Below, in pieces: positions 550 to 35,600 of a DNA stretch of 64,000 nt; position 1 is the stretch's first letter, and each line of letters begins with the position of its first letter. Location: NCBI GenBank assembly GCA_000004985.1, contig GG738880.1; one strand, 5' to 3'. The stretch comes from Naegleria gruberi (lineage: Eukaryota). The notes below the pieces were generated by a model that worked only from the letters and a program-made list of their open reading frames with translations, made no database searches and was not told the DNA's origin. Position numbers and translations under genes: made by a program.

Positions 550-1761
550 ATGTCAACAACAATCCAATCATCATATGATGATTCAAGGAGTAATAGCTCT
601 CCTTCCAGTAATATTGGACCGGAAGCAGTTTCAGATCAACAATTGAAGGAGGAAATTTTAAAACAAATTAAATTATTGGAGGAGGAACATCAAATTACCA
701 TTCTCCTTGTTACAGATGTCGGAAGTAGAGCCTACAATTGGGAAAATCCAACAAAGAGTGATTACGATTTAAATTTTATTTATACGAGACATTGGAAGTA
801 TTACATGACAATTCAAAATAAGCCACAAACATTAAAGAAGGAAACGTTCATAGATTTGGAGAGTGATTATCTCATTAAAAGAACAAAGAGTTCACACAAT
901 TTTTATCATGATTGCAAGGAAGGAGAATTAACAAATCAAAAACTTAGAGTAGAGTGCAATTTTGTAGGATTTGATATCAAGTATGCAGCAGATTTCTTTT
1001 TCAAATCGAATAGAGCTATTGTATTTCTCCTTATGTCCCCTTGCGTATATTACGTTCATCCAAAGGCTCATTCTTTATTTTTTGATAAGTGGATTCCAAT
1101 GTGCCACACTCACGTTCAAAGAAGACATCACTTGCAAGAAATGATTCACATTGCTAGATACAACATTAATAGATATATCCTAGGAAGAAGAACTGTCAGA
1201 GTGAAATCATATCTCTACATTTTACATCACTTGTTCTATGTTTTATATTTGTTCAAGAGAAAGGATGAAGATTCTTTCAAGAAGAGGCTTCCACCTTTGG
1301 AATTTAAGTATTTATTCGAGGATTTAAAGGGAGACTTTATTTCTCCAAAATTGGCTGGACTTGTTGAGTTTTTAATGAAATTGAAAGTGAGCGGAGATAA
1401 TTTTTGTAAAATAGTCATTCCACCAGAGGAAGTTAAACCTGTGGAGATTAAAGAAAGTAAACCAACAGACAACACAGAAAATTCTGAGGAGGTTCCTGCT
1501 AAAAAGAAATCAAAGAAACAAATCAAAAAGGAAATTAGAGCTCAAGCCGATGAAAACCTCAAAAGTTTGGAAGATGATGGTTCTAAGAATGATATTCACG
1601 TTGGGCACAGCTTGGAAATTGAATTATTTACCATTTATTGGTATCGTAAAATGAATTATTGGATTTATCACATGGAAAAGGATTACATGGACGGAAATGA
1701 TGTTGATAAATTATTATTGGAAGCAATTGATTTGTATGAAGGGCCAGAGTTTAGCATTTGA
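550..1761 (+). CDS. Nucleotidyltransferase-fold (Pol-beta superfamily) protein of uncertain family with a Lys-rich C-terminal tail; true start is the ATG at 550 (the ORF track starts at a TTG)
   Basis: Seen: an uninterrupted 404-codon ORF. After a predicted helix comes the motif VGSRAYNWENPTKSDYDLNFIY, which fits the NTase-fold signature h-G-S-x(9-13)-[DE]-h-[DE]-h found in MNT, OAS, cGAS and Pol-beta-type enzymes. A basic KKKSKKQIKKEIR tract follows later. The family assignment is inference. Confidence 0.5.
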   Translation: MSTTIQSSYDDSRSNSSPSSNIGPEAVSDQQLKEEILKQIKLLEEEHQITILLVTDVGSRAYNWENPTKSDYDLNFIYTRHWKYYMTIQNKPQTLKKETFIDLESDYLIKRTKSSHNFYHDCKEGELTNQKLRVECNFVGFDIKYAADFFFKSNRAIVFLLMSPCVYYVHPKAHSLFFDKWIPMCHTHVQRRHHLQEMIHIARYNINRYILGRRTVRVKSYLYILHHLFYVLYLFKRKDEDSFKKRLPPLEFKYLFEDLKGDFISPKLAGLVEFLMKLKVSGDNFCKIVIPPEEVKPVEIKESKPTDNTENSEEVPAKKKSKKQIKKEIRAQADENLKSLEDDGSKNDIHVGHSLEIELFTIYWYRKMNYWIYHMEKDYMDGNDVDKLLLEAIDLYEGPEFSI

Positions 1762-1763
1762 GA

Positions 1764-3152
1764 TTACATAAAAGCATTTTTGATCTTCTTTTTCTGCTCA
1801 TTGGCCATCTTTTTCTTCCTTTTCTCATTGAGTTTTTCCTCTAATTCTATTCTTCTTTGCTTTTCCTCTTCCGTTTCAACATATTCAGATCTTTGACTTG
1901 TTGTTGGAATAGAACTTGATAGTTCAACTACATTAGTTGGTTGATTATCACTCACATTAGGCATTTGGGATGAATTATTTTCCTCATTAACTTCTTCTGG
2001 AATGAGTCCAGCATCATCTCCACCTAAACGTGAATCATTTCCTTGAGAATTAATACCCCCTCCAAAGGAATGTTGTGATTGCTCTCGTGTATCTGCAATC
2101 TTTTGTTTCTTACTTGTTTTTGGTGGTGAGAAGAGATGATTCATATATTTGGTATATAATTGTTGGAGGAGAGGATTCTTATTAGATTCGGTAGAATCAG
2201 TCTTAGAATTTGTGAATGAAATATCACACATGCCTAGAGAATCACTGACGAGCAGGATCTTATCCAATTGATCCAAAATGTCAGAATTTTGAGTGGAATT
2301 ATTAGCTCCACTATACATTTGTCTGAAATTAATAAGTTCTTGCTCCTTTTTCAAAAGAAGGGATTTCATTTGATCAATTTGTTGATTTTGAGTTTGAACA
2401 ATTCCAAGTAGAGGTCTAATAACATGATTCAATATAAATAAATTTTCCTTATTGTAAAATCTAATATTATTCAATTCGCTCTTTTGACTATTTTCATCTT
2501 GGTCTTGTTTTCTCTTTTTTGGATTTTCTTCCTCATCCTGAATAAGAATATAGGAATGATCAATTTCCTCCTGATCCTCTCCTCCCTTAGAAATATTAGG
2601 ATCAATACTATCACAATGAATTTCCCAATAGAAAGGTAAACTTATTTGTACTTGTGTTGGTAAAAGAGCTCTGATAGTAACTACCAATTTGGTTCTCTTC
2701 TTTTTCAGAGTGCTTGCATGAACGCTCTGAATAGAATCCATCAACATGTCCATCGCTGTTTCCTCTTCACAATTTTTCTCACCTCTCACTTCAATCTTTG
2801 GTTGATTCTTCTCCTGTATCGAATCCAAATCATAATGAATTAAAAACTGTTCAATTTGTTGGACCAAAGATTCAGCAGACATATTCAACCCCTTACAATA
2901 CTTGTTACTATCACTTTCAATTTCTTCCTTTTCATATCGTTTCTTCCAAACACATTTCATATTGGAAATATAAAGTACAAATCCATTCGTGATGGTTTTA
3001 AATTTTACAAAGAATGATTCACCCAACGGATCGACCGACACTGGAAGACGAATCCAATTAATATTCATGATTAATTTTTCATCGGAATCTTGAATTATTT
3101 TTTCAAAAGATTCCGAAAATTTCAAAGAACTTCCCAAGCTTTGTGATGACAT
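1764..3152 (-). CDS. Hypothetical protein: globular N-terminal head followed by coiled coil, with a basic tail that may be an NLS
   Basis: Seen: a 462-aa ORF with an ATG start. It has two beta-rich modules (FFVKFKTITNGFVLYISNMKCVW and LVVTIRALLPTQVQISLPFYWEIH), heptad-rich helical segments and a C-terminal EKRKKKMANEQKKKIK. Any relation to XRCC4/SAS-6-type head plus coiled-coil proteins is speculative. Its 3' end lies 2 bp from the convergent upstream gene. Confidence 0.4.
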   Translation of the reverse strand: MSSQSLGSSLKFSESFEKIIQDSDEKLIMNINWIRLPVSVDPLGESFFVKFKTITNGFVLYISNMKCVWKKRYEKEEIESDSNKYCKGLNMSAESLVQQIEQFLIHYDLDSIQEKNQPKIEVRGEKNCEEETAMDMLMDSIQSVHASTLKKKRTKLVVTIRALLPTQVQISLPFYWEIHCDSIDPNISKGGEDQEEIDHSYILIQDEEENPKKRKQDQDENSQKSELNNIRFYNKENLFILNHVIRPLLGIVQTQNQQIDQMKSLLLKKEQELINFRQMYSGANNSTQNSDILDQLDKILLVSDSLGMCDISFTNSKTDSTESNKNPLLQQLYTKYMNHLFSPPKTSKKQKIADTREQSQHSFGGGINSQGNDSRLGGDDAGLIPEEVNEENNSSQMPNVSDNQPTNVVELSSSIPTTSQRSEYVETEEEKQRRIELEEKLNEKRKKKMANEQKKKIKNAFM

Positions 3153-4044: not shown

Positions 4045-5535
4045 TTATTGTTTAGAATTGATGCTCTTCAAAACTGCCTTCTCATAATTCTTCAAGAAAT
4101 CTTTGAATTCATTTCTAAAATCTTTCAAAACCTTATTCTCAGCCATGGAGTTACCGCTCCTTGGGGAGTTTCTATTCGATTCTTTGGAAATGGTGAGTTG
4201 ATATCTTTCAAAGGCAGGTATTAAATTCTCGCTAACTTCCTTTTGGATTTCATCAAATAAAGTGAGAGGAACTACTTGAGCTTCATTCTGAGCTTGTTCT
4301 TTGATGAAATTTTCAACTTTCGCATAACCTTTAGTCTTGACATAATTAGGAGAACCTCTTGGATTCAGATACTTCTCATATAAATGAATCATTAAGGAAT
4401 CAATCTTCCTATTTGAAGCAATACTTGTTGTTGTATTGATTGAGTAGGCATCACTTGATTCAGAAACAGTATCTTGTTCAACGATGGACGAATCTTCTGA
4501 ATAATCTTTCAATTCTTCCAAGAAATTTCTCATCGTTTGAATTTCTTGCTTTTCAGGACTCTTGAAATCTTGAATGTCTTCCAACAGGAAAATACGATTC
4601 AAATCATTACTCGAATCTCCATAATTTTGTAAACTAATCCACTGTTTCAACAAGGATCTCTGTACAACCGAACTCATCACATTTTGCAACTGTAACCTTT
4701 TTGCCTTCATGAGTTTCTTCCTTGAAACTCTTTCCATTCTCAAAACACTGACAAAAATTGCAACACCAATTGGCAATGAAATTACCAAACAAATTAAAAC
4801 TACAATTAAATAAGTAGTTGAATTGGATGCAATCAATTCATGTTGAGTATTACTGATATTTCTAATCTGTTCAACAAATAAAAAGTAATCATTTAGGAAG
4901 GAGGATTGACCAGAAAAATGTTCAGGTTTCATAAATAATTTGACACCTTCAGAATAATTACCTGCCAAGGTTTGTTTTAGAATGGCATCTTGAAGTGGGA
5001 ATAAATAGAGAGTACTTGCATCCTTACTTGAGTTTGGGAAAACTTTCTCAGCACTTTCAGGTAATAATTTAAAGAGCTCATTAAACGAATCAATCATTTC
5101 ATTTCTTGATCGATTGAACAATGAATATTTTGACAGATCTTTGGAGAGAACCACCAAATTCACTGCACTACTCATCTTGTTATACTGGAAAGCACTATCA
5201 CCAAATATTTTCAAAGTTCTAAATACGGGAAAACTTGTTTTGGCAAAAGTATAAATTGTAATAATTGCAATAATTACAACGCCAATGATTGCTGTGCTTA
5301 TTCCCAACAGTGAAACCAATCTCATGAAGTTTAATTCAACAATCTTTTGAAAACATGGTAATTTAAAACGAGCAGTGTTTGATTTGGCAGTTTCACTCTT
5401 CTTTGAGCTTTTAACTTTGGAACTTGAGGTAATTGACTTGATGGATTTCTTTGGAGAATTAATACAAGTCGAAATTGGTGGATTAATTCTTTCAGAGGAT
5501 GCATTGATAACTTGTACTTGGTTACCAGCAACCAT
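4045..5535 (-). CDS. Two-pass membrane protein with a glycosylated ectodomain and a C-terminal RGS-like domain
   Basis: Seen: ATG start and a hydrophobic helix LVSLLGISTAIIGVVIIAIITIY. The region that follows carries several N-x-S/T sequons. A second helix is TYLIVVLICLVISLPIGVAIFVSVL. The tail (FLEELKDYSED ... IHLYEKYLNPRGSPNYVKTKGYAKVENF ... LFDEIQKEVSENLIPAFERYQ) lines up with the helix 4-9 signatures of RGS domains (FL.sEfSeEN ... A..IY..fI ... FdeaQ..If.lMe.dsy.RF). This is a divergent match, so the RGS call is inference. Confidence 0.5.
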   Translation of the reverse strand: MVAGNQVQVINASSERINPPISTCINSPKKSIKSITSSSKVKSSKKSETAKSNTARFKLPCFQKIVELNFMRLVSLLGISTAIIGVVIIAIITIYTFAKTSFPVFRTLKIFGDSAFQYNKMSSAVNLVVLSKDLSKYSLFNRSRNEMIDSFNELFKLLPESAEKVFPNSSKDASTLYLFPLQDAILKQTLAGNYSEGVKLFMKPEHFSGQSSFLNDYFLFVEQIRNISNTQHELIASNSTTYLIVVLICLVISLPIGVAIFVSVLRMERVSRKKLMKAKRLQLQNVMSSVVQRSLLKQWISLQNYGDSSNDLNRIFLLEDIQDFKSPEKQEIQTMRNFLEELKDYSEDSSIVEQDTVSESSDAYSINTTTSIASNRKIDSLMIHLYEKYLNPRGSPNYVKTKGYAKVENFIKEQAQNEAQVVPLTLFDEIQKEVSENLIPAFERYQLTISKESNRNSPRSGNSMAENKVLKDFRNEFKDFLKNYEKAVLKSINSKQ

Positions 5536-5956
5536 TGTTTCACTTTTTTTTATTCTTTGAAAGTTAATTGAAAGTAAACAAAACCATCAAGTCCAAAAAC
5601 ACCCACCATCAAACATCAATGATACTTGTTGACATTGGATTCTTTTTTGGTCAATTATTCCATTAATAAAGATATCTTTATCGAGATAACATTTTCAAAC
5701 TCAAACTCATCGTTAGTCAATGTAGTTTATTTACATGTTGTCTAATAAAGTCCTCTGTCTTTTAATGTTAGTTTCCTTCTCTTTGAAATATTGGCTAAAT
5801 TATGTTATGGGCACTACGTTTACGTTTTTCTTGATGGAATGAACTAAATTGGTTGCTTATAATTGGGTGTTTGTTTTTCGAACTTGCGTATGAAGCGATT
5901 TAAGTCTCTTTTTATTCGAAATGGGTAAATTGTTTAGTCAATTACAACAATAAAAA

Positions 5957-7545
5957 ATGCAAGCAACATCTCCCACATCACCAAACACCACAACAGAGGA
6001 AGATTTTGAAGATAATGACAGTATTGTTGCTGAGGATGAAGAGAATGATAAGCAGATGAGAAATGTGGTATCGTATGGAGTGGGAGAAACTCAAGTTTCG
6101 TTTACTCAAAATCCACTTTCAGATACCTTTTCGTATTATGAGCCAGGAGAACACGCCAATACGAAACAAGGGAGTGAAAATGTGTGTCGTGGTGCTGTCA
6201 TTCGTTCATGGTTTCAGAAATTAAGAGAAAAGGATCTCATCATTCCATCCATGACTACCATTACACTTTTACTAATTATGGCATGTTTGATTGTAATAGT
6301 GGTTGCAGTTACAGCTCCATTCAAGGACATTACTACAGTGAACGTGGTTGATATTATGAGCTATCGTTCATCATTGTTGGCTGCTCATGTATCCATGAAA
6401 GGTTTTACTATCCAGTTTATTCCTATTTCCTCTACTATTTCATGAGATCATTTATGGAAGGGAGTTTACAAAATATGACGACGTTGCTGCCTCCAGAGTT
6501 TAAGCATGAATACTTGTATTATACGAATAATTATACGAATGCTTTCAAACAACCAACTGTTAAAGTGTGGGATAATGTGCTTATTGGTCCTACAATGTAT
6601 CCGTTCCCATTCACTATTGGAAATGAAACTGTAACATATTACTTGGTAGACAATCAAAAAATGGGACAAGCTCAACAAGTTTATTCTAGTGCAAACTATT
6701 CCACAATGCTATCTTCCTATGAGACATCGTTCTTCAATTATGTTGGAAATATCACAAGTTATTGTGAGAACATTTCAATCTCTACCAAAAACTATTACAT
6801 TGTAACAATATCAATGGTGGCATTCTGTTTGTTCATTGTCATCCCAACCATGATGTTAACTTTATTCTTTATTCTGAAGAAGGATAGAAAGAATGCAATT
6901 CAATTGAATCAAACAAGTGAAAATCTATTGAAAGAAACCATGTCTGATATGGCAACTCGACAGGCTTTCAAAATATTTTGTAACGAGAGAGGTTTTGGTG
7001 CTCACATCAATGCCATTGAGAAGATTATGTCATTTAAGGAACATTGTGAACAATCTCAGGAAATGCAAACGAAATTGATTGAAATTACTTCAGATTATGT
7101 CAATAAGGTTAATGCCATGCATGATCAAAACCATTTCAATCACAAAGGAGACAAAGTTAACTTTAAGATTGATGATAAAAAGACAAGAGCTATTTTCAAT
7201 ATTTCATGTGAAGCCGAAAAGAAAATCAAACATAAGGAATACATGAAATCGAGTTTAATTTTTGACATTTTGGAAGAAACTCAAGATGTAGCTAGCTCCA
7301 AAGTAACAAGTGAATTATTCTATGCCTATGATTGTTACAACAATAGAGAGAAAATGTTTCAAGATATTGACATTCTTCCCTCAATGATTATGGACAAACT
7401 GGAACATGAACTAAGTGATGCACTCATCAATACCCATTTAGATTTCAAGGCATCACTCAAAAACAATACCATGCTTTCAAATTCTGAACCACATCACACA
7501 GAAATCGATAGAGAAGAATTTGAGTTGGAGCTAGTCAATGTCTAA
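5957..7545 (+). CDS. Two-pass membrane protein with an N-glycosylated ectodomain and a C-terminal RGS-like domain; probably two exons, join(5957..6401, 6461..7545)
   Basis: Seen: the ORF track gives two abutting ORFs (5957-6445 and 6442-7545) in different frames. A 59-nt intron, GTTTTAC...GGAAG, reconnects them in frame (..HVSMK|GSLQNMTT..); the donor is weak. First TM helix: ITLLLIMACLIVIVVAVTAPF. The ectodomain is rich in NxT/S sequons. Second TM helix: IVTISMVAFCLFIVIPTMMLTLFFIL. The tail, ATRQAFKIFCNERGFGAHINAIEKIMSFKE ... KVNFKIDDKKTRAIFN ... LIFDILEETQD ... SELFYAYDCY, is RGS-like. A single-base frameshift in the assembly cannot be excluded as an alternative to the intron. Confidence 0.5.
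6402..6460 (+). other. Candidate 59-nt intron joining the 5957 and 6442 ORFs
   Basis: Phase-consistent GT...AG; the length is congruent to 2 mod 3, which the frame change between the two ORFs requires. The donor GTTTTA is non-optimal. Confidence 0.35.
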
Positions 7546-20632: not shown

Positions 20633-23600
20633 ATGTCATCACAAGAGTTGTTGGAGATTGACAATCATAGTACGGAACATTCAAATGTTAACACTTCCAT
20701 CACTTCTCATCATCACGAATATCTTCACTATGGAGATTTCATTTCACTCTTCACTGAATCGAGTGGTGGAAGTATTGGATTTCTCAGTGTGGATGGAATT
20801 AATATTAATTGTAATAATATTCAAGGGTTTGTTTCTCTTTCAAAACTTAATAATTTTAATAATTTAATTAAATTGATAATCAATACATTAATCATTGGTT
20901 GCCAACATTAACGTTATTTAAACAAAATTAAAAAATGTTCGGAAAACAATTATTGGATCGCGATTGATATCTTATGTTTATTAATAATAATAATTGAATG
21001 ATGAATTGATAATGATAATAGGAATGTAAAACAAATTCGTTGTGGTCTTTCAGAGGCTGTGTCCTTGACTGGACATGAATCAAATCAACAACAAGCCTCT
21101 CACAATCAACAACAAACAACTACTTCCGACTCAAAGACAAAGCAAATTCCTCCCACCTATATGATCTCTAACTTTCAACAATGTGTTTTTCAAGTTTGTT
21201 ATCCGAAGAGTTATTCTGCCTTGAAAAAGTACAAACAACATTTGGATGAATTGGAAATCAAGGCTAGTGGTAATAGTGCAAAGAAGAGTCAAGACAATTC
21301 TGACAATGATTCGAAGAAGGTTATTCATCATGAGAGCAATGAAGTTGCTCAATTAAAGGAACGAATGGAACGTGAGATTCAACAAAATGAATTGGAAGCT
21401 CTGAGAAATTATGGAAAACCTGTTACATATGGCTCATCAATTCAATTACTTCATGTACAAACTCAAAGCTTTTTGACTGTTGCGAGAGAGTCTGCAGAAA
21501 TGCAGAAGGATTGTCTCAGATTATCATTGGATGATGTTGGATCGAAGTATTCACATTTTTCTCTACTTCCATATTTCAATTATCGTAGAGATGGAGAAAT
21601 TGTGAAACTTTCTGACAAGATTAGAATTTGGAATAGAAAATCTGCACAATATGTACAATTTTCATACTATAGATATAGTAATGCTGTAGAATCAGGCTTG
21701 AAGAATGCTCAAAGTATTGGTTCAAACGTTAATGAGATGGATAAATCATCTTACACACAATTAGCTAAAGAAGCTGTAAAGAATAATGCCAACCTTAAAA
21801 AATTCACATACGACAATAGAAGAGAAGTTAACATGTCAGCATCGAGTGCATTCTCACATTGGAATTTGAGAGTATTTTCACCTTGTAAAGATTCCCCTAC
21901 AGAAAGTAACAAATTCCTCAAAGCAGGTGATATAATAAGAATTTATCACAAAGAATTTGATGGTTTTTTAACTGTCAATGAAAAGACTGGAAGAGTCAAG
22001 CTGAAAAAGTCATTTATCAATCCTCTTATTGGAAGCTCAGCAAATGGAGAGGCATCTTTTTCAAATTCAGGTTTAAGTTCAATGAAGGGATCAGGTATGA
22101 AGTCATTCTCATCCAAATCAAGTCTGGTCTCTGGTCAATACTCTAGTTCGTTCAATCTGGCAGATTCCTTCTCATTGAGCAGTAAGAGTAGCCTGTCACT
22201 GGTTGACTCTTCTGAGAATACTCTTTCTGGTGTTATACAGGATGACTTTGATGTAACTTGTCATACATTGTGGCAAGTAGAAATGTTGGACTCAACCAAA
22301 GGAGGAGAGTTGAGGAAGAATTTCGTTTATAGGTTGAGACATGTCAGTACAGGAAACTATCTCATAGCAAGAATGGCCACTGATGATGAAGAGAAAAAAG
22401 AAAGAGATGCAGAAGATGCTGAAATTTCTGAATTCTCTCACAGTTCTTTCTACATTTCATCTGAATCAAGCTCTAGTTCTATTCAATTGCATAATACAAC
22501 AAGCCCACTTTCTAAAACACCAATCAAAACCAAGAAGGAGAATAATCTTAGCTTGTTCGTAGAACCACAAGATAATTGTACAAACCCTCTCAATATGTTG
22601 TTTAACTTGCAAGATTCCATGCTTTCTACAGATCACTCTGAGTTTTTCTTGAATGGGCAATTCAGACTCAGACATTATCTAACTAATACTTGGTTGCATT
22701 CAGTTAATTCGCAGAAAGCTTTTTCTAAATCATCTGAAAGAGCCTCTCTCAAATCTCATTACTCACCAGTATGTACCACTCAAGGCATGAGAGAGGAGGA
22801 TGTATTGACTTGTGTGTTGGTTTCCAGACCAGAAAGTGAAGACTTGTTCACAGTGCAAAGTTACATCCCAATTCTCAAATACTTTACTCAAAAACTTAAT
22901 GATGGATCTGTAAATAGGAGTGACATCAAGTTGTACATTGACGTAATTTCTAGTTGTATAAGATTTTGTACTAGCAGTTCTGAAATGGATCCCCTCCTGA
23001 GAAGTGGTATTCCAATCAAAAAAAACCAAAAATTAATGAGAGAAAAGGGTGTCATTACTATTGTTATGGATATTTTGATGGCACTTATTTCTAAGAATTA
23101 TGTAAAATTGGAAGAGTTATCAACAATTCAAGAAAGGAGTGACAAGATTGACTTTTTTGATGTAATTCAGTATTCATACAGATTCATTAGACAAGTTGTA
23201 CTTACAAACGAATCAAATGGTTTATTTATGGCACAGTACATTAACTTTATTCAGACCAACATTGAACATAGTATTAGTGCATCTGAGGCTCTTTTGCAAA
23301 TTTTATCCAACAATTTTTCCTTGTTGAATAAGATTACAGAGGACCAAATTGACTTTTTCATCAAATTATTATTCACAAACCCTACTAGTTCTAGTTCATT
23401 GAAGCAACATACAGAAAGATATGGAGGTTCTCTTAAGAAAGCTGTCTACTTATCCTTCTTGACCAGTCTAATCATATGTGAAGGAAAAACTGTCGTGAAA
23501 AACCAAAAGTATATTAGTAACCTGCTCTTCTCAACATTCAAGGAGCAAATGTTGAAGGTATTTGTAATACCAAGAATTAGAAAATCAGATGATAAGGTGA

Positions 23601-26600
23601 TTATCGATGTGAATCGTGTAGAGTATGAATTGGTCAATTTTTCAAAGTCTGCCACCAATATCGATCATATTACTTATTCAAAAAATAATTTTGAACTAAT
23701 GGTCTTCTTCCAAGAGCAAATCAAACTCTTTGCTGCCATGTGTACCGGAAGTAATGAAGCTACCGAAATGACAAGAGCAGCCATTATTCAGCTATTTACT
23801 TTTGAAATTGTGTACAAGTGTGTTGCAGAGTCGGCACTTACTCCAGCCTTGAGAACTTCTTTTGTCCATCTGCTTATGCACTGTTTCGTAGACACTGAAA
23901 AGAACGAAAAGAGAACATTTATTGAATTGACTCGTAAACTTGAATCCCTATCTGGAAAGAGTGTTCACGAATATACATCCCGTGAGCTTGGTGAGGTCAA
24001 GCAATTTCTAGAAGTTTTCTTCAGAGAGAATACCTCATTAGATATTGGATACGAGAAGAGAGATGTCAATAATTTTATTCTTTCCCTTGCTCAGTTGTGT
24101 GCAGGAATGATTGAATTTGGTATTTTCAATTTGAAAGACTTTGAAGAGACAGATCTCCTTGTTTCATTATTTAACATTCTCAGATCAGACAACGACACCA
24201 AAAATGGCTTACCATTACGTGATGAAGAAAGGTTCAAGCAATCAGAAGAAAACGTAACTGTAACTCAAATCAAGATTGAAATTGCCAAGATATTTCACAT
24301 GTTGCTAGACTTGCTGTTAGATAAGAGAATTACGAAATTCCTTCAATTCTTTTGGATGAAATACAAAATTGATGATATCAAGATTGTAATAGAGGAAGAA
24401 TCTGACTCATTGCTTGGTGTGACCTCCAATGACAAACAACAAGCACAATTGCTAAATTTACGTAAAAAGGAATTGGATAGAATATTCCAAGAAATGGACA
24501 CAAAGGAAAATCAGGTTTTGAAAGATATTTTCGAGAATACTACCCTTCCTTTCAAGATTATGTCAGAGTTTTCACTTAAAATTATCAACTTGACCTCCTA
24601 TGAGAATCAAGAACTATCCACAATATGTCTTCGTTTATTGATCAGAAGATACAGAGCAGCTGACGAGCTTGCAGAAGCTCTACCAAAAGTTGAATTGATT
24701 GTCTCAAGAGAAATGGCTCGTTCCTATGACCATTTGAGAAAACAGACTGCCGACTTGAGAAGTATTTTTGGTTATGGTAGAAGTAATTTCCTAGGTGCTC
24801 GTCACATCAGTGAATACGAAGTTAAAAAAGCTATGAAAGCCCTTGGAGAAGTTATTAGTGATATCAAAACTAATGGAAAGAGAAGTCAAAGAATTATTCG
24901 TAATCTCAATTTATTTGAACTCGTTTTGTCTGTTTTGAGGAAGGAGTGGATGGTTCCAACTGATATTCAAGAAAATTGCCTGACCATTTTAACAGAGTTT
25001 GTTAGAGGTAATCCAGACAATCAGAAACTTCTCTTCCCTTACATTGAATTTTTCATGAGACTGATCACAGAGAACAAGAAGCTTAGCAAGTATATTGTTC
25101 TATTGATGTGTGAAATTGTTAAGAATAATAGAACATTGTGCAGTATTTTGGAAGAAAAATTAATAGAGCAATACTTTGATTTGATTGCTGAACAGAGAAG
25201 TGCCTTCATGTTGCTTTTCTTAAGAACCATTTTGGCAACTCATAATAATACACCAATCAAAAGAAACCAATCCCTCATTACCAAATATATGGTTGAGAGA
25301 AAGAAAGATGTTTGTGTTCTATTCAAAGACGAAGAAGGTATGAGAGAACGTAACAATAGAATTACCAAGGAAGAACACAAAACAGAACCAGATGGTATTC
25401 TCAATTATCACATTGCACTATTGCACTTGATGGCTACTGCTGCTGATGGCAAGAATAGAGAAAGTGAGTTGCGTTTACAAACATTGTTTTCTTTTGAAGA
25501 GTTGTTGGAACAAGTTGTTTCTCCTTTCACATTGGCCATGATTAGAAATCCTCTCATCAAGATTATCAATGAAGTCTATATCAATGTGGAAAAGGCAACT
25601 GATGACCACCAGGAAAAGAAAACCGCCAATGTACATCATCCTTTGATGTATAAAATGTTTTCAAAGATGATTAGAGAGTTGGAATTTGTGGAGATGCTTC
25701 AAACTCTAGATGTGAATGCAATTGTAGGGTCAGAAGGAGCTACCAACTCACCTTCTCCCTCTGGTACTGGTGCTTCTCTATCTGCTAGCAGTGCTACTAA
25801 ATTATCGAATGCTAGTGTCAGACCTTCAATGAACCTTACCAATCAAGCACTGATTAGACAGAGTAGAGCTATAACCAATAGAAATTCATCCATTGCACCT
25901 AAAATGCAAGTAACTGAAGAGGATTTGGAAAAATTCCATGTTGACAATTACTATATATTCGAAGTTATGATTCCAGTTGTTCAGAATTATTTCCACTTGC
26001 ATTTCCCTCCTCCTAATCTGTTAAAGGAACAACTCGATGTTGCAGAAGATTTATTGCTGAAACTCATTGATTTACACAAATTCACGGCAAATACTGACCA
26101 AAGAGAACAAATTTACAAGTGTATTACTGCCATGTGGAAGAAGAGTATGTCTTCAGAGTCACAATTAGCCATTACCAAGTTCGTAACAAACAAGAACACA
26201 AAGGCAAAGATGACAAGATCCAGATTTGAAGTATCTTCTACAGTAGAAACTGATGAGTACATTCACAAGAGCTATACAAAGTATTTGCAAAAAAGAATTA
26301 TTAACAAGGTGGAAGAATTTTCGCACTTTAATAGGATTGGTGCTCTCTTTGAAAAGTATAACGGATTTGTGAAGGTACTTGTTAGAGCCCTCAGAAAGAT
26401 TAATACACCTCTATTGAATTACAGTCCATCCCTTCTTGAAGTGGGACTTTTGAGTATGGAAATTCTCAAAGATATTGTCAGATCTCAGAATAAGAGAGCT
26501 AAAGAGGTGAAACAAAAGGGAGAGAACGATGTTCCAGAAATTGAAAATTTGAACTATGTGGAAAATAAGCTTCCAGTAATGATCATTGAATTGATGACAT

Positions 26601-29302
26601 CATTTAATCCTGCTATTGTTAGATCTGCCATAGATCTTGGTATCTTGATTTTGAACCGTGGTGATAAGGCAATACAGGATGAGTTTTATAGAATATTGAC
26701 AGAAACTGACTCGTCCTACTTCTTTGAATCATTGAGAGATAGAATCCGTCTTGGTAAGACAGAAATCAAGGAGAGAAAGAATTACCTCAAGAAGAAAAGG
26801 GATAAAGACTATGCCTTGTTCAAACAACGTCAAAGACAAGAAGTTGCCAAGGTTCGTGCTAAGGATGAAAATGATTCCTCCCGACCAATGGAAGAGGAAG
26901 AAGAAAGAGATTTACAAGAGGACTTTGTTGAAATGGGACATATTGAATTACTTTTCGAGTTTTTGAGACTTTTATGTGAAGGACACAATGTTGAAATGCA
27001 AACACTTCTCTTAAATCAACCAGTTAATACTCTGAACGTGAATGTTGTTACAGAAACAATTGAATATATGATTGCTCTAGAGAAAAAGATTGATTTTGAT
27101 AACGTTCAAATTGCTATTCAAGGTTTCAAGACCTTGACAGAATTCATTCAAGGCCCAGCTCTTGTCATCCAACAAGCTATTGGTACTTCTCCGAGATTCT
27201 ACGCCAGACTGGTCAATGAAATCATGTCTAAAACATATGAAGATGGAAACTTGCTAAAACAACAAGAACTTGGATTGAAGAGGGAAGTTTTACTTACTCT
27301 CAATGCTCTTCTAGAAGGAATGAACAATAGTGTATTTGATTTTATGAGACATTCCCTGAACTTTGATGAATTGGAGCATTTCCTTTTGTTCTCTGCCAGA
27401 TTTTTGCATTCTCTAGAAACCAAACATGAGAACTCTGATGCAAAGGACGAATACAATGAAATCAAGCAAAGGTTGAGAAGAGATTTTGATCATCACTTCC
27501 TTCATGAAGCCACACGTGACAAGGCTAATCCAGTTATTGCAGAAGATTACATTGCAGTCTATATGCCAATGATCAAGAATTTATTGAAAGAGACTGGTAA
27601 TTTTGCCTTTTTCTTGCTTAACATTTTCAGAGATGGTGAAAGAGAAAATTTGAGAAATATTTCAAGAAGTGCCTTTATTTCTGTAGAGGAAGAAAACAAA
27701 CTTTTAAGGATTACCAACATGTTGGATAATCATTCTCAATTAGTTTCAGTATTTTCCGAATCGACAGCAAGTATTGAAGTGTTGCGTGATAACAAGATTG
27801 AGAAGATTTACTTTTCCAAACCAACCATATGCAACAATTTGATGGACAAGGCAAGAAGTAATTATGTAAACTCTCTGGATGTCATGGCACCTGAAGAGAA
27901 AGTTCGTACTCTTTACAACCATACCTTCAGTATTTTCCAAGTTGAAATGGAGCATTATGAATTGATGAAGAAAAAGTCCACCATCAAGGATAAATTAGAA
28001 GATCTAGTTGGTATAGCCAACAAACACACAGAAGAAGTGACAGAGTTTGTGCCTACAATGGCTCAACTGAGAAATAAGTACAAGAGGAAAAAGAAACTCT
28101 CCATTGGAACTAGTTCTAAAAACAGGGACCAAACAGCAAGTTGGGAATTTATTGCTCACTGGTGGGACAGAATTCGTTTATTATCTTTTATATTTTGTGT
28201 GGTTCTTAACATTTTCGTTTTAGGATTTTTGAAGAGACTCTACTCAGCAAACACAGTAGATGACATTCCAGTACCTGGAGATTTGGATTTTGATATTACG
28301 TTGGCATCAAAATATCCTACAACAAGAAATTTGGCTGGTGATATTATTATAACTATTCTGGGAGCCATTCAATTGATAACAACAGCATCATTGGCCATTA
28401 TTTACGCAAAAGTTTTTATTACTCTTGAAGTGAAGAAGAGATTCAAACTCAAAAAGAGAGAGAAATGGGAAAATATTCCAAGAAATAGAGAATTCTATTG
28501 GAAATTTATCTTTTACGCACTTCAAGATTTACAAATGTGGTTCTTTGTACTGTACTTTGTTCTCAGTGTATTAGGATTATTGATATCTCCAATAGTTTAC
28601 AGTATTCAATTGTTCGAAATTGTTTTCAGATTTAAGAGTTTGAATGACGTGTTGAGGGCTGTCATTTCCAATGGAAAAAAGCTCTTTTTTGCAGGCATGT
28701 TACTTGGAATAACCATGTTCTTGTTTGGATTGCTATTCTTCTCATGGTTCTCTAATGATTTCACACTTGAATCTAATGGAACAAAAACATGTGAAAGTGT
28801 GTTGGAATGTTTTGTGACAATGTTTGACTATGGTTTCAGAAGTGAGTCATCATGGGAAAATATGTATCCACACAATCCAACTGTTGGAAGGGCCATCCTA
28901 GACTTGGCATTTAACATGATTGTAATCGTGTACCTTTCTAACGTTGTGTTCGGTACAATTCTAGATTCTTTCCAAGAATTGAGAGCAGCAAGAGAGGAAC
29001 GTAAGAATGAAATTAGAGAAAAGTGCTTTATATGCGCTCTGGAAAAGAGTAAATTTGATACAAAAGCCAATGAAGGAATTACCTTTGAAAAGCACATTAA
29101 GGAAGAGCATTACTTGTGGAATTATGTCTACTTTTTAATTTACTTGTACGAGAAACCTGAAACTGAATATACAGGTGTTGAAAGTTATATTTTCGAAAAG
29201 TGTGAGGAGAATGATGATGTAACAAGCTTCTTCCCAATATTTAGGTCTAAAACAATTGAGGAAAGCGAACAAACAAAGGTTTCATTAGGAGGATCGGATT
29301 AA
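20633..29302 (+). CDS. Inositol 1,4,5-trisphosphate receptor / ryanodine-receptor-family Ca2+ release channel, about 2.8k aa; exon 1 is 20633..~20830 and exon 2 is ~21056..29302
   Basis: Seen: exon 1 (the 92-aa ORF in the track) matches the IP3R N-terminus (LHYGDFISLFTESSGGSIGFLSVDGININCN vs human [31 protein letters not shown]). After an AT-rich stretch the large ORF resumes the alignment (PPTYMISNFQQCVFQVCYPKSYSALKKY vs [23 protein letters not shown]). The C-terminus has a 6-TM block and the IP3R gatekeeper region (KCFICALEKSKFD...ITFEKHIKEEHYLWNYVYFLIYLYEKPETEYTGVESY vs human [53 protein letters not shown]). Two intron models are phase-consistent: 20831..21055 and 20898..21053. The exact boundaries are therefore uncertain. 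Confidence 0.8.
20831..21055 (+). other. Intron between IP3R exons 1 and 2, about 225 nt; alternative model 20898..21053
   Basis: An AT-rich, low-complexity stretch interrupts conserved IP3R N-terminal sequence. Both GT...AG models keep the frame. The first model avoids translating the low-complexity VSLSKLNNFNNLIKLIINTLII. Confidence 0.45.
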
Positions 29303-32684: not shown

Positions 32685-35600
32685 ATGAGTGAAGCTCACA
32701 CAGACAGTGCGGAGTCATCAACAACCACCAGTTTTTCATTTGCCACTCAAGTAAAAGAGAGGTTTGGAGAATGGATTGTTGTATTGAGGAATTCCAAAGC
32801 GATTGATAGTAACAAGTGGAGGATTTTTCACACCCTCACCGAATTGTATATATTATATTGTGCTCTATTCATTCCAACGATGAGAAATTACGGTTATGGA
32901 GAGTATGGACAGATCATGTTTAGTATCGTGGATTTTCCAATGCATTTTTTCTTACATTGGATTCAATATGAAGAAAGTTTCATAGTGAGTGGATTATTTG
33001 TGGGATTTTTAGTGTTGGCCTATGGTTTGCTGTTTGTTACCACATGGGCCTTCTCGAAAGGGAAACCTTTTAGGAAAAATCTTAGATCTCCCCTCATTAT
33101 CATCATGTACCTTTGTAGAATGTTATTTCCTCTCTTTATTCATCAAGTGATTGGATACATGGATTGTAGTTTGACTCACACTGTGCCCTACACGAGTAAG
33201 AACACTCTGAATCGATATTCAACGATAGCATGTTCAGAATCTCCGAATAGTATTCTTATTGGCCTGTCAGTGACCTTTCTCTTCTTCCTTCTGATATTTG
33301 TTATTGTATCAGAGATGATTTGCTCCGATATGCATCCAATGAGTAGACACATCTTTACACACGATAACTATTGGACCATGGTACTGCTGAGAGTGTGCTC
33401 ATTCATGAGCGTTCTCATCATGTTCTTAATCCCTATAGAATATCCCTATATATCATCAATTGTGAATATGGCTCTATCACTAATTGCTCTCATCATTCTC
33501 TTCAAGACACTTCCCTTCTACCGATCTATAAGCAGCTCTATTGTATTCGGTGTTTATTGTGGAGCACTTACAAGTTCATGTGGAACCTTAATAACCTTCT
33601 TCATCACCTCGCTCGCCTTAAACACTCCCAACACTTCATCTCCTCTCTTTAAGGAAGTTAGCGCGGGTCTTTCAGGGTTTATCGTTATTTTAGCAGTTTT
33701 GGGATTTTTGGGAGGTTTATCTTTTTTGGAATTATATCAGCGACAATTAAGAAAGACCATATTAAGGGAGGTGTTAAAGATGCGTTCTGTTTATAGACAA
33801 ATACTACCTGAGGAGAGTAATACAGTACTCTCACCTAATGCAGCTGCCACAGGTAGAGAGAATAATTTTCTTACTGTTCATCGTACTCCTGTGAAGAGAT
33901 TGTCAATTGATATACAATCGAGTTATACGACAGCTGATTCGGCTTATCAGCAATTTATGTTAAATGCTAGAGCTAGTGTGAAACAGTATAAGAAGGGATT
34001 GTTGTTATTATTGAGATCTGATTTGGTGGAAACTTCTAATACAACGAAAGATTTGAATGGAGAAACAGTTCAAATTCATGAAATTACAATGAGATTATGT
34101 AAGAATATTTTACAGAGAGGATTTGGAGATCGTCAAGTCATGGAAACTGTGGCAATGTTGTTCGCTTACAGACACATTTGCACTTCATCAAGTTTAACTG
34201 TAGCCGTCGAATTGTTACTCAAAAGTCAAAAATATTCAAACCTTCTTACTCACAATTTCTCATCGATCAAAATTACTGAAATTCAAAGCTTGGAAGAAGC
34301 TCNNNNNNNNNNNNNNNNNNNNNNNNNNNNNNNNNNNNNNNNNNNNNNNNNNCAGTTTGAGGAATATTATCAATAAGATAAGTGAGTTGACAATGGAGAG
34401 TGAACAAGTCTTTAAACAACTCCTATCGAGAAAGACAAAGAAAATACTAAGTTTGTACGCTTCATTTGTGGAAATTGTGTATTTTGATAAGGAAGGAGCT
34501 CATGCATTGTACTTGGAAGCCAATGCAATGGAAGAGCAGAAACCAGTCAAACTGCAAAAATACAAGACATCGAGAATTATGCCACAACCAATGTCAAAAG
34601 ATGACAACTTGTCAGAACAAGGTTCATTTCAAAAGAGAGCTAGTTTCTTTTCAGATGCTGAATTTGCTCACCAACAATTATTGGATGATGTATTGGAGGA
34701 AAGTGCAAGTGTTGCTGGCGCAGGAGGCGAACTCAAAAAGGATTACCTATTTAGGAATGCTTTGAAAACTTTAAAATCAAATACGGCAACTAAAATTTTC
34801 TATGCCATATTCTTATTACTGGGAGGATTTATAATTTTGGGCTCGATTGGTTTGTCCACTTATCAAGGGGCCATTATTAAGAAAAATATTGTAAATTTGA
34901 GATTAATTTGTGTTCCACAAATTTCACCAATTTCCACAATTAGAAATTTGAGAGCTTTCCAAAATTGGGTGAATATGTTTGTGTTGAATGAATATAGTTG
35001 GCCAGAACAAAGACATGGATTTTTAAATGAGTATATAACAGTAAGTTTTGCTTTAAAGAACCATTTCACATGAACTATTTATAGGCATATGTTGATGATC
35101 ATCGTCGAGTATTGGAACAGGACATTTCAGTATTGGAAGACTTGGTAAAATTAGGTCAATTGGTAGCGTTTGATGCATCTACCTATACAGCATATGGAAA
35201 ATCACAATATTCCTTCAGGGTTCCAAGTGTTAATGGAACTGATTCTTGGTCAAAATTACAATTTACTGGAATTCCAGAAAATAGAACACTGTCGATAATT
35301 GAAATGACTAATTCCTTATTGCAATATATGGATGAAATCAAAACTGTTCTTCCATTCAACGATTTGAATGCATTCTTCAATACAACCAATCAAACTGCCC
35401 GACATCAAATTCAAGAACGTTTATTGAACTCTACACTTCTCAATCCAGTTAATGATTTCAGTTTCATGTTACTATGGATTAATATGAAATCAAGTTCTTT
35501 ACAATACAAGGAATTCTGCTCCAATTTCATGAAGAAGAGCAATATTCAAGCCAATGACATGATTTACCAATTCGAATATTTTTTCATTGGAACATTATGC

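What the first reader, a model, noticed from the sequence alone, without database searches (positions are those of the whole stretch)
550..1761. Orphan nucleotidyltransferase-fold protein (G-S-x10-S-D-x-D motif) with a basic tail
The motif VGSRAYNWENPTKSDYDLNFIY is a textbook Pol-beta-superfamily NTase active-site signature (hG[GS]...[DE]h[DE]h). That superfamily includes OAS, cGAS/Mab21, SMODS/CD-NTases, TUTases and MNT. The rest of the protein carries no motif I can place. Eukaryotic members of unassigned NTase families are candidates for signalling-nucleotide synthases or protein/RNA nucleotidylating enzymes.
Basis: partly seen in the sequence, partly recalled or inferred. Interest (0 to 1): 0.5.

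Follow-up and report, generated by a model that had tools for sequence, protein, structure and literature searches.

The report
Divergent eukaryotic RlaP-family nucleotidyltransferase gene
This Naegleria gruberi gene encodes a real nucleotidyltransferase-fold protein. It is not an orphan: it is a divergent eukaryotic branch of the RlaP family, bacterial and phage enzymes that add one or two nucleotides to broken RNA ends before ligation, and its active site is partly rewired.

Summary
The ORF (550-1761, +, 403 aa) and the G-S...S-D-x-D motif are real. The "orphan" label is wrong: the protein matches Pfam PF10127 RlaP (E 6.6e-22, 78.8 bits against a cutoff of 23). A confident AlphaFold model (pLDDT 85.8) has a Pol-beta NTase domain plus a KNTase/HEPN-like helical bundle, not an OAS/Mab21 partner. 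The best fold matches are phage RlaP-type NTases (TM 0.84).

The window is Naegleria gruberi NEG-M, and this ORF is missing from the protein collection. There is no "basic tail". A short KKKSKK cluster sits inside a lineage-specific insertion, and the last 53 residues are net acidic.

The gene belongs to a small eukaryote-only subclade of 11 sequences (Naegleria, Willaertia, Pharyngomonas, uncultured protists). All 11 replace the family's most conserved third Asp (position 137) with Asn and carry an invariant Glu two residues upstream. This E-x-N pattern resembles KNTase E76-x-N78. The subclade also replaces R75, K145, E159/W160, H197/Y198 and R226.

In Willaertia the orthologue lies about 1 kb from a bacterial-type, PrfH-coupled RtcB ligase that heteroloboseans share.

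Best reading: a template-independent RNA 3'-end nucleotidyltransferase used in RNA repair. Whether it is active, and on what substrate, is untested.

The parts
550..1761 (+). Complete single-exon ORF, 403 aa plus stop: a divergent RlaP-family (PF10127) nucleotidyltransferase of Naegleria gruberi
   Evidence: ORF. Pfam RlaP E 6.6e-22, 78.8 bits against a cutoff of 23. PHROG 14344 'nucleotidyltransferase' 1.8e-21. Orthologues in N. lovaniensis (50% identity), N. fowleri (48%) and Willaertia (46%). The species is identified from exact matches of neighbouring genes.
550..621 (+). N-terminal Ser-rich region (aa 1-24), predicted disordered and not conserved
   Evidence: Mean pLDDT about 25-50. Variable among the four closest orthologues.
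622..1056 (+). Pol-beta NTase domain (aa 25-169): helix 25-47, strands 50-56, 72-79, 94-104, 131-142 and 166-169
718..783 (+). G58-S59-R60 (nt 721-729) is the triphosphate-binding turn. S70-D71-Y72-D73 (nt 757-768) is the metal-binding DxD on strand 2.
   Evidence: G58 135/136, S59 134/136, R60 135/136; S70, D71 and D73 136/136. hhalign places them on KNTase G38-S39/D50/E52 and AadA G35-S36/D47/D49, but with very low probability.
862..939 (+). Lineage-specific insertion (aa 105-130) at the tip of the strand 3/strand 4 hairpin
   Evidence: Absent from canonical family members and variable in length among Naegleria and Willaertia. pLDDT about 70.
940..975 (+). Strand 4 (aa 131-142, KLRVECNFVGFD). 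It carries E135 (the candidate third carboxylate), N137 in place of the family's Asp, G140 and D142.
   Evidence: Position 137 is D in 119, E in 5 and G in 1 of the 125 sequences outside the subclade, and N in all 11 subclade members. E135 is invariant in the subclade. Weak DCA contacts 80-142 (z 5.4) and 76-140 (z 4.1) place this strand next to the DxD strand. The sequence resembles KNTase K-V-E76-V-N78-F, and E76 is structurally equivalent to the catalytic AadA E87 and LinB E89 (PMC4631478).
1060..1416 (+). Helical domain (aa 171-289), an up-and-down bundle with net charge +11. It includes the subclade signature VRVKSYLYILHHLFY (nt 1195-1239).
1417..1599 (+). Naegleria/Willaertia-specific insertion (aa 290-350). 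It has a low-complexity acidic part, then the basic cluster PAKKKSKKQIKKEIR (nt 1495-1539) at the start of a predicted helix (aa 322-343).
   Evidence: Absent from canonical members and from the other subclade members. pLDDT is below 50 for aa 301-312 and about 93 for aa 321-330. K322, K323 and K326 are invariant among the four orthologues. A nuclear-localisation or RNA-binding role is my inference only.
1600..1758 (+). Conserved C-terminal helices (aa 355-373 and 382-396), net charge -7. The last helix packs back on helix 1 of the NTase domain.
   Evidence: Aligns with the C-terminus of canonical members. DCA contacts 41-391, 38-391 and 34-383 agree with the three-helix bundle described for the PfRlaP crystal structure (PMC12776372).

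Best explanation
The ORF encodes a divergent eukaryotic member of the RlaP (RNA-ligase-associated Pol-beta, PF10127) nucleotidyltransferase family.

Shown:
- Family-level homology.
- A two-domain fold: Pol-beta NTase plus a KNTase/HEPN-like helical bundle, with the C-terminal helix returning to the NTase domain.
- An intact GS turn and DxD pair.
- Membership of a small eukaryote-only subclade with its own strongly conserved signature.

Inferred:
- Like the characterised Pseudomonas RlaPs, it binds an NTP and divalent metal (Mn2+ preferred in those enzymes) at G58-S59/D71/D73.
- It binds an RNA 3'-OH end in the positively charged interdomain cleft.
- It adds one or a few nucleotides without a template. 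This restores nucleotides lost from cleaved tRNA or rRNA so that an RNA ligase can reseal them.
- In this subclade the third metal or base carboxylate has moved from position 137 (now Asn) to E135 on the same face of the same strand. This arrangement is also seen in KNTase (E76-x-N78) and AadA (E87-x-T89).
- Its likely partners are the many RNA ligases of Naegleria, in particular the bacterial-type PrfH-coupled RtcB that heteroloboseans carry.
For: Family membership:
- Pfam RlaP 78.8 bits, E 6.6e-22. PHROG nucleotidyltransferase 1.8e-21.
- A profile search of 1.84 billion representatives gave 1472 hits. The listed top 150 are mostly about 250-290 aa, the canonical RlaP size.
- 120 top hits of the family profile all carry PF10127.

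Fold:
- AlphaFold2 pLDDT 85.8, pTM 0.82.
- Foldseek against BFVD matches phage nucleotidyltransferases at E 3e-12, TM 0.84.

Catalytic residues:
- GSR, S70, D71 and D73 are invariant or nearly invariant.
- E135 is invariant in the subclade.
- DCA places strand 131-142 beside the DxD strand.
- Published structure superpositions equate KNTase E76 with the catalytic AadA E87 and LinB E89, on the strand parallel to the DxD strand (PMC4631478).

Biochemistry of the family: RlaP adds 1-2 NMP to RNA 3'-OH, not to DNA or protein, and prefers Mn2+ (PMC12776372).

Link to RNA repair:
- In Willaertia magna the orthologue lies 981 bp downstream of an RtcB gene on the same strand.
- That RtcB passes the curated cutoffs of NCBIfam NF007153 (425 against 407 bits) and TIGR03073 release_rtcB (381 against 272 bits).
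- It has orthologues in N. gruberi, N. fowleri, N. lovaniensis and Acrasis.
- N. gruberi is documented as unusually rich in RNA-repair ligases: 13 classic ligases plus 2 RtcB (PMC4408790).

Purifying selection: long invariant blocks are shared among four species at only 46-50% overall identity.
Against: - The best-conserved third Asp of the family (position 137) is Asn in this protein and in the whole subclade.
- Other residues conserved in more than 80% of family members are replaced: R75N, K145Y, E159F, W160L, H197E, Y198M, R226H and E284N. The conserved acidic D93 and E96 are Q and K. Substrate, donor or even catalysis may therefore differ from the characterised enzymes.
- I could not read the coordinates of the model. 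The placement of E135 and N137 next to D71 and D73 rests on weak covariation (Meff about 180) and on analogy.
- The gene-neighbourhood evidence comes from one species only. An uncalled 317-aa ORF lies between the two Willaertia genes.
- In N. gruberi and N. lovaniensis, RlaP and the RtcB lie on different scaffolds.
- No RNA-repair gene is in the 64-kb window.
- There is no expression or biochemical data.
Confidence: 0.55

Rival explanations
1. It is a catalytically dead or crippled RlaP-derived pseudoenzyme. It keeps the fold and perhaps nucleotide or RNA binding, and acts as a scaffold or sensor rather than a transferase.
For: D137N occurs in all 11 subclade members. In the Naegleria/Willaertia lineage D93, E96, R75, K145, E159/W160, H197/Y198 and R226 are also lost. 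Willaertia keeps a second, canonical-type RlaP paralogue (P0024) with D137, R75, E159 and W160, which could supply the activity.
Against: G58-S59-R60, S70, D71 and D73 are strictly kept, which is unusual for NTase-fold pseudoenzymes. An invariant Glu appears two residues from the lost Asp on the same strand. Active enzymes (KNTase, AadA) use this same E-x-N/T layout. The replaced positions are themselves conserved within the subclade (H/N75, H226, SRR, HHL), which suggests a remodelled site rather than a decaying one.
Confidence: 0.2
2. It is an active NTase whose acceptor is no longer an RNA 3' end. It could be a protein side chain (AMPylation, as in DrrA and GlnE) or a small molecule (as in the ANT enzymes).
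Confidence: 0.15
3. It is a signalling-nucleotide synthase of the OAS/cGAS/CD-NTase kind.
For: Only the shared Pol-beta superfamily motif. OASL, OAS1 and CdnE appear among the Foldseek PDB hits with probabilities of 0.03-0.15.
Against: No OAS1_C, Mab21 or SMODS match in Pfam. No PADLOC hit. The helical partner is KNTase/HEPN-like. The family's characterised members extend RNA ends.
Confidence: 0.03
4. It is an end-processing terminal transferase for DNA double-strand-break joining, working with the XLF-like protein encoded next door.
For: The convergent neighbour at 1764-3152 (-) matches Pfam XLF (E 4.4e-8). The pairing is syntenic in N. lovaniensis.
Against: Gene adjacency in eukaryotes is weak evidence, and it is not kept in Willaertia, where ProRS lies downstream. 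Characterised RlaPs do not act on DNA.
Confidence: 0.03

Closest known systems
RlaP family (Pfam PF10127): Pseudomonas fluorescens and P. aeruginosa RlaP, phage T4 NrdC.11, Bacillus/Paenibacillus and phage 'nucleotidyltransferases'
   Same: Significant profile match over most of the protein. Same two-domain architecture, with a C-terminal helix returning to the NTase domain. Conserved GSR, SDxD, G140, D142, N154, S163-P164, Y167, K219-x-Y-x-Y and K279. One orthologue lies close to an RtcB ligase gene.
   Different: It is eukaryotic and 403 aa long, against about 260 aa, because of three lineage-specific insertions. D137 is N with E135 gained. R75, K145, E159, W160, H197, Y198, R226, E284, D93 and E96 are replaced. 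It forms a long-branch subclade with only eukaryotic members. Activity is untested.
Kanamycin nucleotidyltransferase ANT(4')-Ia (KNTase, PDB 1KNY/6UN8)
   Same: A Pol-beta NTase domain plus a helical bundle. Same local order: strand hairpin, strand bearing E-x-N, then a helix. Local sequence K-V-E76-V-N78-F against R-V-E135-C-N137-F.
   Different: No significant overall sequence similarity: hhalign aligns only the GS/DxD region at very low probability. KNTase is a domain-swapped dimer that modifies aminoglycosides.
AadA / ANT(3'')(9) and AAD(9) aminoglycoside adenylyltransferases
   Different: Different family with a small-molecule acceptor. The connection between strands 2 and 3 differs.
DrrA/SidM and GlnE adenylyltransferase domains
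   Different: They are protein AMPylators. There is no sequence-level relationship beyond the superfamily motif.
OAS / cGAS (Mab21) / CD-NTase (SMODS) signalling synthases
   Same: Pol-beta superfamily GS and DxD motif only.
   Different: No OAS1_C/Mab21-type helical domain, no Pfam or PADLOC match, and Foldseek probabilities of 0.15 or less.

Membership tests
RlaP (Pfam PF10127) | Match to the family HMM above the curated gathering score | tested here: met
   78.8 bits against a cutoff of 23, E 6.6e-22, model positions 2-201 of 249. The C-terminal part aligns in the 136-sequence MAFFT alignment once the insertion is skipped.
RlaP (Pfam PF10127) | hG[GS] turn and [DE]h[DE] pair of the Pol-beta fold | tested here: met
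   G58-S59-R60 and S70-D71-Y72-D73. The columns are invariant or nearly invariant. They lie after strand 1 and on strand 2 of the model.
RlaP (Pfam PF10127) | Third 'strictly conserved' catalytic Asp (PMC12776372). I take it to be alignment position 137 on grounds of conservation and strand position. | tested here: not met
   Position 137 is Asn here and in all 11 subclade members, against D in 119, E in 5 and G in 1 of the other 125. A subclade-invariant E135 lies two residues upstream. The paper gives no residue numbers, so identifying position 137 as the catalytic Asp is my inference.
RlaP (Pfam PF10127) | N-terminal NTase domain, C-terminal helical domain, and a terminal helix that rejoins the NTase domain (PfRlaP crystal structure) | tested here: met
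   Model secondary structure. DCA contacts 41-391, 38-391 and 34-383. TM 0.84 to predicted structures of phage family members. The crystal structure is described.
RlaP (Pfam PF10127) | Family-conserved cleft residues (R75, K145, E159-W160, H197-Y198, R226, E284) | tested here: not met
   Here they are N, Y, F-L, E-M, H and N. The subclade has its own conserved replacements.
RlaP (Pfam PF10127) | Genomic association with an RNA ligase (the origin of the family name) | tested here: inconclusive
   The Willaertia orthologue lies 981 bp from a PrfH-coupled-type RtcB, with one uncalled ORF between them. No ligase was found within the flanks read (5.7-10 kb per side) in N. gruberi, N. lovaniensis or three metagenomic contigs.
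RlaP (Pfam PF10127) | Adds 1-2 NMP to RNA 3'-OH, prefers Mn2+, and does not act on DNA or protein | not testable with these tools
   Biochemistry is known only for PfRlaP and PaRlaP.
OAS / cGAS-Mab21 / CD-NTase | OAS1_C or Mab21-type helical domain packed on the NTase lobe, or a family HMM match | tested here: not met
KNTase / ANT(4') | Sequence-family membership | tested here: not met
   hhalign aligns 32 columns at probability 0.06%. Foldseek E 0.03-0.06. This is a resemblance of fold and local motif only.

The most novel reading that the evidence does not exclude
Heteroloboseans and some uncultured protists carry a neofunctionalised, eukaryote-specific offshoot of RlaP. Its catalytic carboxylate has migrated (D137 to N, with E135 gained) and the substrate cleft has been rebuilt. 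It may work with the horizontally acquired, PrfH-coupled-type RtcB ligase as a bacterial-style repair module for ribotoxin-damaged rRNA or tRNA inside a eukaryotic cell, possibly with a different donor or acceptor specificity from bacterial RlaP.
Probability: 0.25. Interest if true: 0.55.

Novelty: new variant of a known kind. Interest (0 to 1): 0.33.

Why it matters
RlaP was characterised biochemically only in late 2025, and only for two Pseudomonas enzymes. Almost nothing is known about its few eukaryotic members.

Naegleria has an unusually large set of RNA ligases whose in-vivo roles are unknown. An end-healing nucleotidyltransferase would be a missing piece of that toolkit.

The subclade also offers a natural experiment on how far the third carboxylate of the Pol-beta active site can move.

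On the practical side, the gene seems to be missing from the N. gruberi reference protein set.

The finding does not open a new class of enzyme. The fold, the family and the probable chemistry are all known.

Tried and rejected
- Single-sequence and profile searches of PDB sequences found no RlaP structure, so no direct template comparison was possible.
- The first AlphaFold run, with a 4-sequence alignment, was unusable (pLDDT 44). The second, with 136 sequences, was good.
- The tools do not return model coordinates, so I could not measure distances from E135, N137 or D142 to D71/D73.
- As a substitute I ran mean-field DCA on 257-269 sequences. It recovers known contacts (53-77; C-terminal helix to helix 1), but it is weak, and the register is uncertain by about 2 residues.
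- hhalign of the family profile against KNTase and AadA aligned only the GS/DxD region.
- The afdb50 fold library was unavailable.
- NCBIfam gave no meaningful hit for the protein.
- Burroughs & Aravind 2016 (PMC5062991) is not held. The RlaP preprint has no supplement held as text.
- One literature search for KNTase residues returned noise, and another failed on syntax.
- I looked for RtcB or other RNA-repair genes in the window and in four related loci and found none.
- I considered a functional link to the XLF-like neighbour and rejected it as unsupported.
- I considered D93, E96 and D142 as alternative 'third acid' positions. D93 and E96 lie on the strand that pairs with strand 1, not with the DxD strand. 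D142 is kept in any case.
Full report

Mostly. The + strand carries one uninterrupted ORF from ATG 550 to the stop at 1759-1761, 403 aa. The peptide VGSRAYNWENPTKSDYDLNFIY is aa 57-78, nt 718-783.

The 'basic tail' is not there. The last 53 residues have net charge -7. The only basic cluster (PAKKKSKKQIKKEIR, aa 316-330) lies inside an insertion of mixed charge, and conserved helices follow it.

**2. Where the sequence comes from**

The window is eukaryotic and AT-rich, 30-39% GC. Its neighbouring ORFs are exact matches to Naegleria gruberi NEG-M proteins. ORF 1764-3152(-) is EFC42376.1/D2VLF4, ORF 4045-5535(-) is EFC42377.1, and two further ORFs also match.

The 403-aa ORF itself is not in the 15-billion-protein collection. 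A word-indexed search found no N. gruberi hit. It found only orthologues in three other species:

| Species | Identity |
|---|---|
| N. lovaniensis | 50% |
| N. fowleri | 48% |
| Willaertia magna | 46% |

The gene therefore appears to be unannotated in N. gruberi. It is nevertheless a real, conserved gene. The N. lovaniensis orthologue sits in the same gene order: NTase, then a convergent XLF-like gene, then an EF-hand gene.

**3. The protein is not an orphan**

- Pfam assigns it to PF10127 RlaP ('RNA repair pathway DNA polymerase beta family') at 78.8 bits, E 6.6e-22, against a gathering cutoff of 23.
- PHROG 14344 'nucleotidyltransferase' matches at 1.8e-21.
- A profile of the four orthologues, searched against 1.84 billion representative proteins, gave 1472 hits. 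Only about ten of these are close relatives. The other hits in the listed top 150 are mostly about 250-290 aa, the canonical RlaP size.
- A search with the family profile returned thousands of PF10127 proteins. The best were from Paenibacillus and Bacillus.

**4. Fold**

With a 136-sequence alignment, AlphaFold2 gave a confident model: mean pLDDT 85.8, pTM 0.82. Its elements are:

- helix 25-47
- strand 50-56, then the G58-S59 turn
- strand 72-79, carrying D71 and D73
- a strand hairpin 94-104 / 131-142, with a lineage-specific insertion at its tip
- helices 143-162 and strand 166-169
- a helical bundle 171-289
- a partly disordered insertion 290-350
- two conserved C-terminal helices

Fold searches agree:

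- Foldseek against predicted viral structures puts phage nucleotidyltransferases of 261-274 aa first, at E 3e-12 and TM 0.84. Giant-virus NTase proteins follow.
- Foldseek against the PDB gives only weak hits, to KNTase/ANT(4'), HalB, TUT4 and OAS.
- No RlaP structure is in the PDB copy.

The helical partner is thus KNTase/HEPN-like, not OAS1_C/Mab21-like. PADLOC has no match.

**5. What is known about the family**

RlaP was named by Burroughs and Aravind for its operon association with RNA ligases. It was predicted to restore nucleotides lost from cleaved RNAs before ligation (summarised in PMC6514570 and PMC7824862).

A December 2025 preprint (PMC12776372) reports on the P. fluorescens and P. 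aeruginosa enzymes:

- They add one or two NMP or dNMP to RNA 3'-OH ends.
- They do not act on DNA or protein.
- They prefer Mn2+ or Co2+.
- They favour the broken end of a tRNA mimic.
- They have an N-terminal NTase domain, a C-terminal helical domain, and a final helix that returns to the NTase domain.

The preprint mentions 'a small number' of eukaryotic members and does not study them.

**6. How this protein differs**

It belongs to a subclade of 11 sequences in my alignment:

- N. gruberi, N. lovaniensis, N. fowleri and Willaertia
- the deep-branching heterolobosean Pharyngomonas kirbyi
- six sequences from metagenomes or unnamed assemblies

I read three of the contigs that carry these unnamed sequences. 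They hold eukaryote-type genes: CDC20-like WD40, BTB, Ras, F-box, V-ATPase A and protein kinases.

Column statistics and the alignment excerpt show which family-conserved residues the subclade keeps and which it replaces.

Kept: G58-S59-R60, S70-D71-x-D73, Y78, Y85, G140, D142, N154, S163, Y167, K219-x-Y-x-Y and K279.

Replaced:

| Position | Family residue | In N. gruberi | In the other subclade members |
|---|---|---|---|
| 75 | R (123/136) | N | mostly H |
| 137 | D (119/136) | N | N |
| 145 | K (122) | Y | Y, N, H or S |
| 159-160 | E-W (119, 116) | F-L | H-x; E kept only in Pharyngomonas |
| 197-198 | H-Y (111, 115) | E-M | varied |
| 226 | R (118) | H | mostly H |
| 284 | E (106) | N | varied |

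In the Naegleria/Willaertia lineage, D93 and E96 are also lost.

The replacements are themselves conserved within the subclade. Its signature motifs are I-E-x-N-x-x-G-[FYW]-[DE], SRR and VR[LV]Kx-YLY-[IL]-[LV]-HHL. This argues for a remodelled site under selection rather than a decaying one.

**7. The third acidic residue**

The preprint speaks of 'three strictly conserved aspartic acids' but gives no residue numbers. Outside the subclade, the best-conserved Asp apart from D71 and D73 is position 137.

I could not read model coordinates, so I used three indirect lines of evidence.

(a) Mean-field DCA (Meff about 180).
- It recovers the strand 1/strand 2 pairing (53-77, z 7.6).
- It recovers contacts between the C-terminal helix and helix 1 (41-391, 38-391), as described for the crystal structure.
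- It couples strand 131-142 to the DxD strand (80-142 at z 5.4; 76-140 at z 4.1).
- It couples strand 94-104 to strand 1 (49-94/95, z about 5).
- The register puts 137 and 135 opposite D73 and D71, give or take two residues.

(b) Published superpositions (PMC4631478). In AadA the DxD strand and the strand bearing the catalytic Glu87 are parallel. Glu87 is equivalent to LinB Glu89 and KNTase Glu76.

(c) Local sequence. KNTase reads K-V-E76-V-N78-F-D followed by a helix. The N. gruberi protein reads R-V-E135-C-N137-F-V-G-F-D142 followed by a helix. I verified the KNTase sequence against PDB 6UN8. AadA has E87-x-T89.

I therefore infer that the subclade moved its third carboxylate from 137 to 135 on the same face of the same strand, a layout that active enzymes use. 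This is an inference, not a measurement. It is also the main reason I do not call the protein a plain new member of the family.

**8. Functional context**

The 64-kb window holds ordinary eukaryotic genes and no RNA-repair gene. They include an XLF-like protein, an EF-hand protein, an IP3/ryanodine-receptor-like channel, a PAS-adenylate cyclase, an OCRL-like phosphatase, a choline kinase and uL4m.

In Willaertia magna, however, the orthologue (L003 8001-9155) lies 981 bp downstream of an RtcB gene (5446-7020) on the same strand. That RtcB is not the canonical eukaryotic tRNA ligase:

- It scores only 74 bits against human RTCB.
- It passes the curated cutoffs of NCBIfam NF007153 and of TIGR03073 'release_rtcB', the PrfH-coupled RtcB2 type that repairs colicin-E3-cut 16S rRNA in bacteria (literature listed).
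- Orthologues exist in N. gruberi (on another scaffold), N. fowleri, N. lovaniensis and Acrasis kona.

There are two caveats. An uncalled 317-aa ORF with an NHL-repeat look fills the gap on the opposite strand. The linkage is seen in one species only.

By my rough estimate, lying within two genes of a named gene in a genome that I assume holds about 18,000 genes has a chance probability of order 1e-4 to 1e-3. The linkage is therefore suggestive, not proof.

N. gruberi is documented to encode 13 classic RNA ligases and two RtcBs (PMC4408790). An RNA-end-healing NTase fits that repertoire.

**9. Verdict**

The protein is a divergent, eukaryote-specific variant of the known RlaP family. It is most likely an RNA 3'-end nucleotidyltransferase used in RNA repair. 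I put the whole statement at about 0.55, and family-level homology at about 0.95.

The main rivals are:

| Rival | Confidence |
|---|---|
| Pseudoenzyme | 0.2 |
| Changed acceptor | 0.15 |
| OAS/cGAS-like signalling synthase | about 0.03 |
| NHEJ-linked role | about 0.03 |

Interest is modest. The kind of enzyme is known, but the rewired catalytic strand, the restriction to eukaryotes, the Willaertia linkage to a bacterial-type RtcB and the missing annotation are worth a note.

Noticed in passing
window 1764-3152 (-): The convergent neighbour, whose stop codon is only 2 bp from the NTase stop, is N. gruberi EFC42376.1/D2VLF4, annotated only as 'predicted protein'. It matches the Pfam XLF N-terminal domain (E 4.4e-8, 33.9 bits against a cutoff of 24.6) and more weakly XRCC4 and XLF_CC. 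It looks like an unrecognised XLF/Cernunnos-type NHEJ factor. The pairing with the NTase gene is syntenic in N. lovaniensis (48% identity) but not in Willaertia.
   Followed up: partly
window 550-1761 (+): The exact 403-aa product is absent from the 15-billion-protein collection, and no N. gruberi protein was among the homologues, although both flanking genes are present as N. gruberi entries. The gene seems to be missing from the reference annotation.
   Followed up: partly
L003 5446-7020 (+), Willaertia magna: An RtcB ligase of the bacterial PrfH-coupled type (NF007153 and TIGR03073, both above cutoff) with a roughly 140-aa N-terminal extension of unknown fold. It lies about 1 kb upstream of the RlaP orthologue. 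Orthologues with extensions of about 85-175 aa occur in N. gruberi, N. fowleri, N. lovaniensis and Acrasis. Similar proteins occur in Capsaspora, Nuclearia and a rotifer.
   Followed up: partly
L003 7025-7978 (-): A 317-aa ORF with an NHL-repeat-like sequence fills the whole gap between the Willaertia RtcB and RlaP genes. It is not among the called genes of that record.
   Followed up: no
P0024 (Willaertia magna KAL9654381.1, 369 aa): Willaertia has a second RlaP paralogue of canonical type (Pfam RlaP 2e-34). It keeps D137, R75, E159 and W160, so heteroloboseans can carry both the canonical and the rewired form. I did not check whether N. gruberi has this paralogue.
   Followed up: no
fold search of the model against BFVD: Giant viruses (Yasminevirus, a 596-aa protein at 19% identity; Terrestrivirus; Klosneuvirus) and baculovirus HE65 proteins are among the best structural matches. 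A viral route for the eukaryotic subclade is not excluded.
   Followed up: no
L001 8001-9544 (N. lovaniensis orthologue): The called gene spans 1544 nt for a 452-aa product and does not translate colinearly, so it probably has a short intron near the 5' end. The N. gruberi gene is intron-less.
   Followed up: no
window 21059-29302 (+) and 35112-37637 (+): A 2747-aa ORF has IP3-receptor/ryanodine-receptor domains (Ins145_P3_rec, MIR, RIH, RIH_assoc, Ion_trans). An 841-aa ORF is a PAS-domain adenylate/guanylate cyclase. Both are ordinary Naegleria signalling genes, unrelated to the finding.
   Followed up: no
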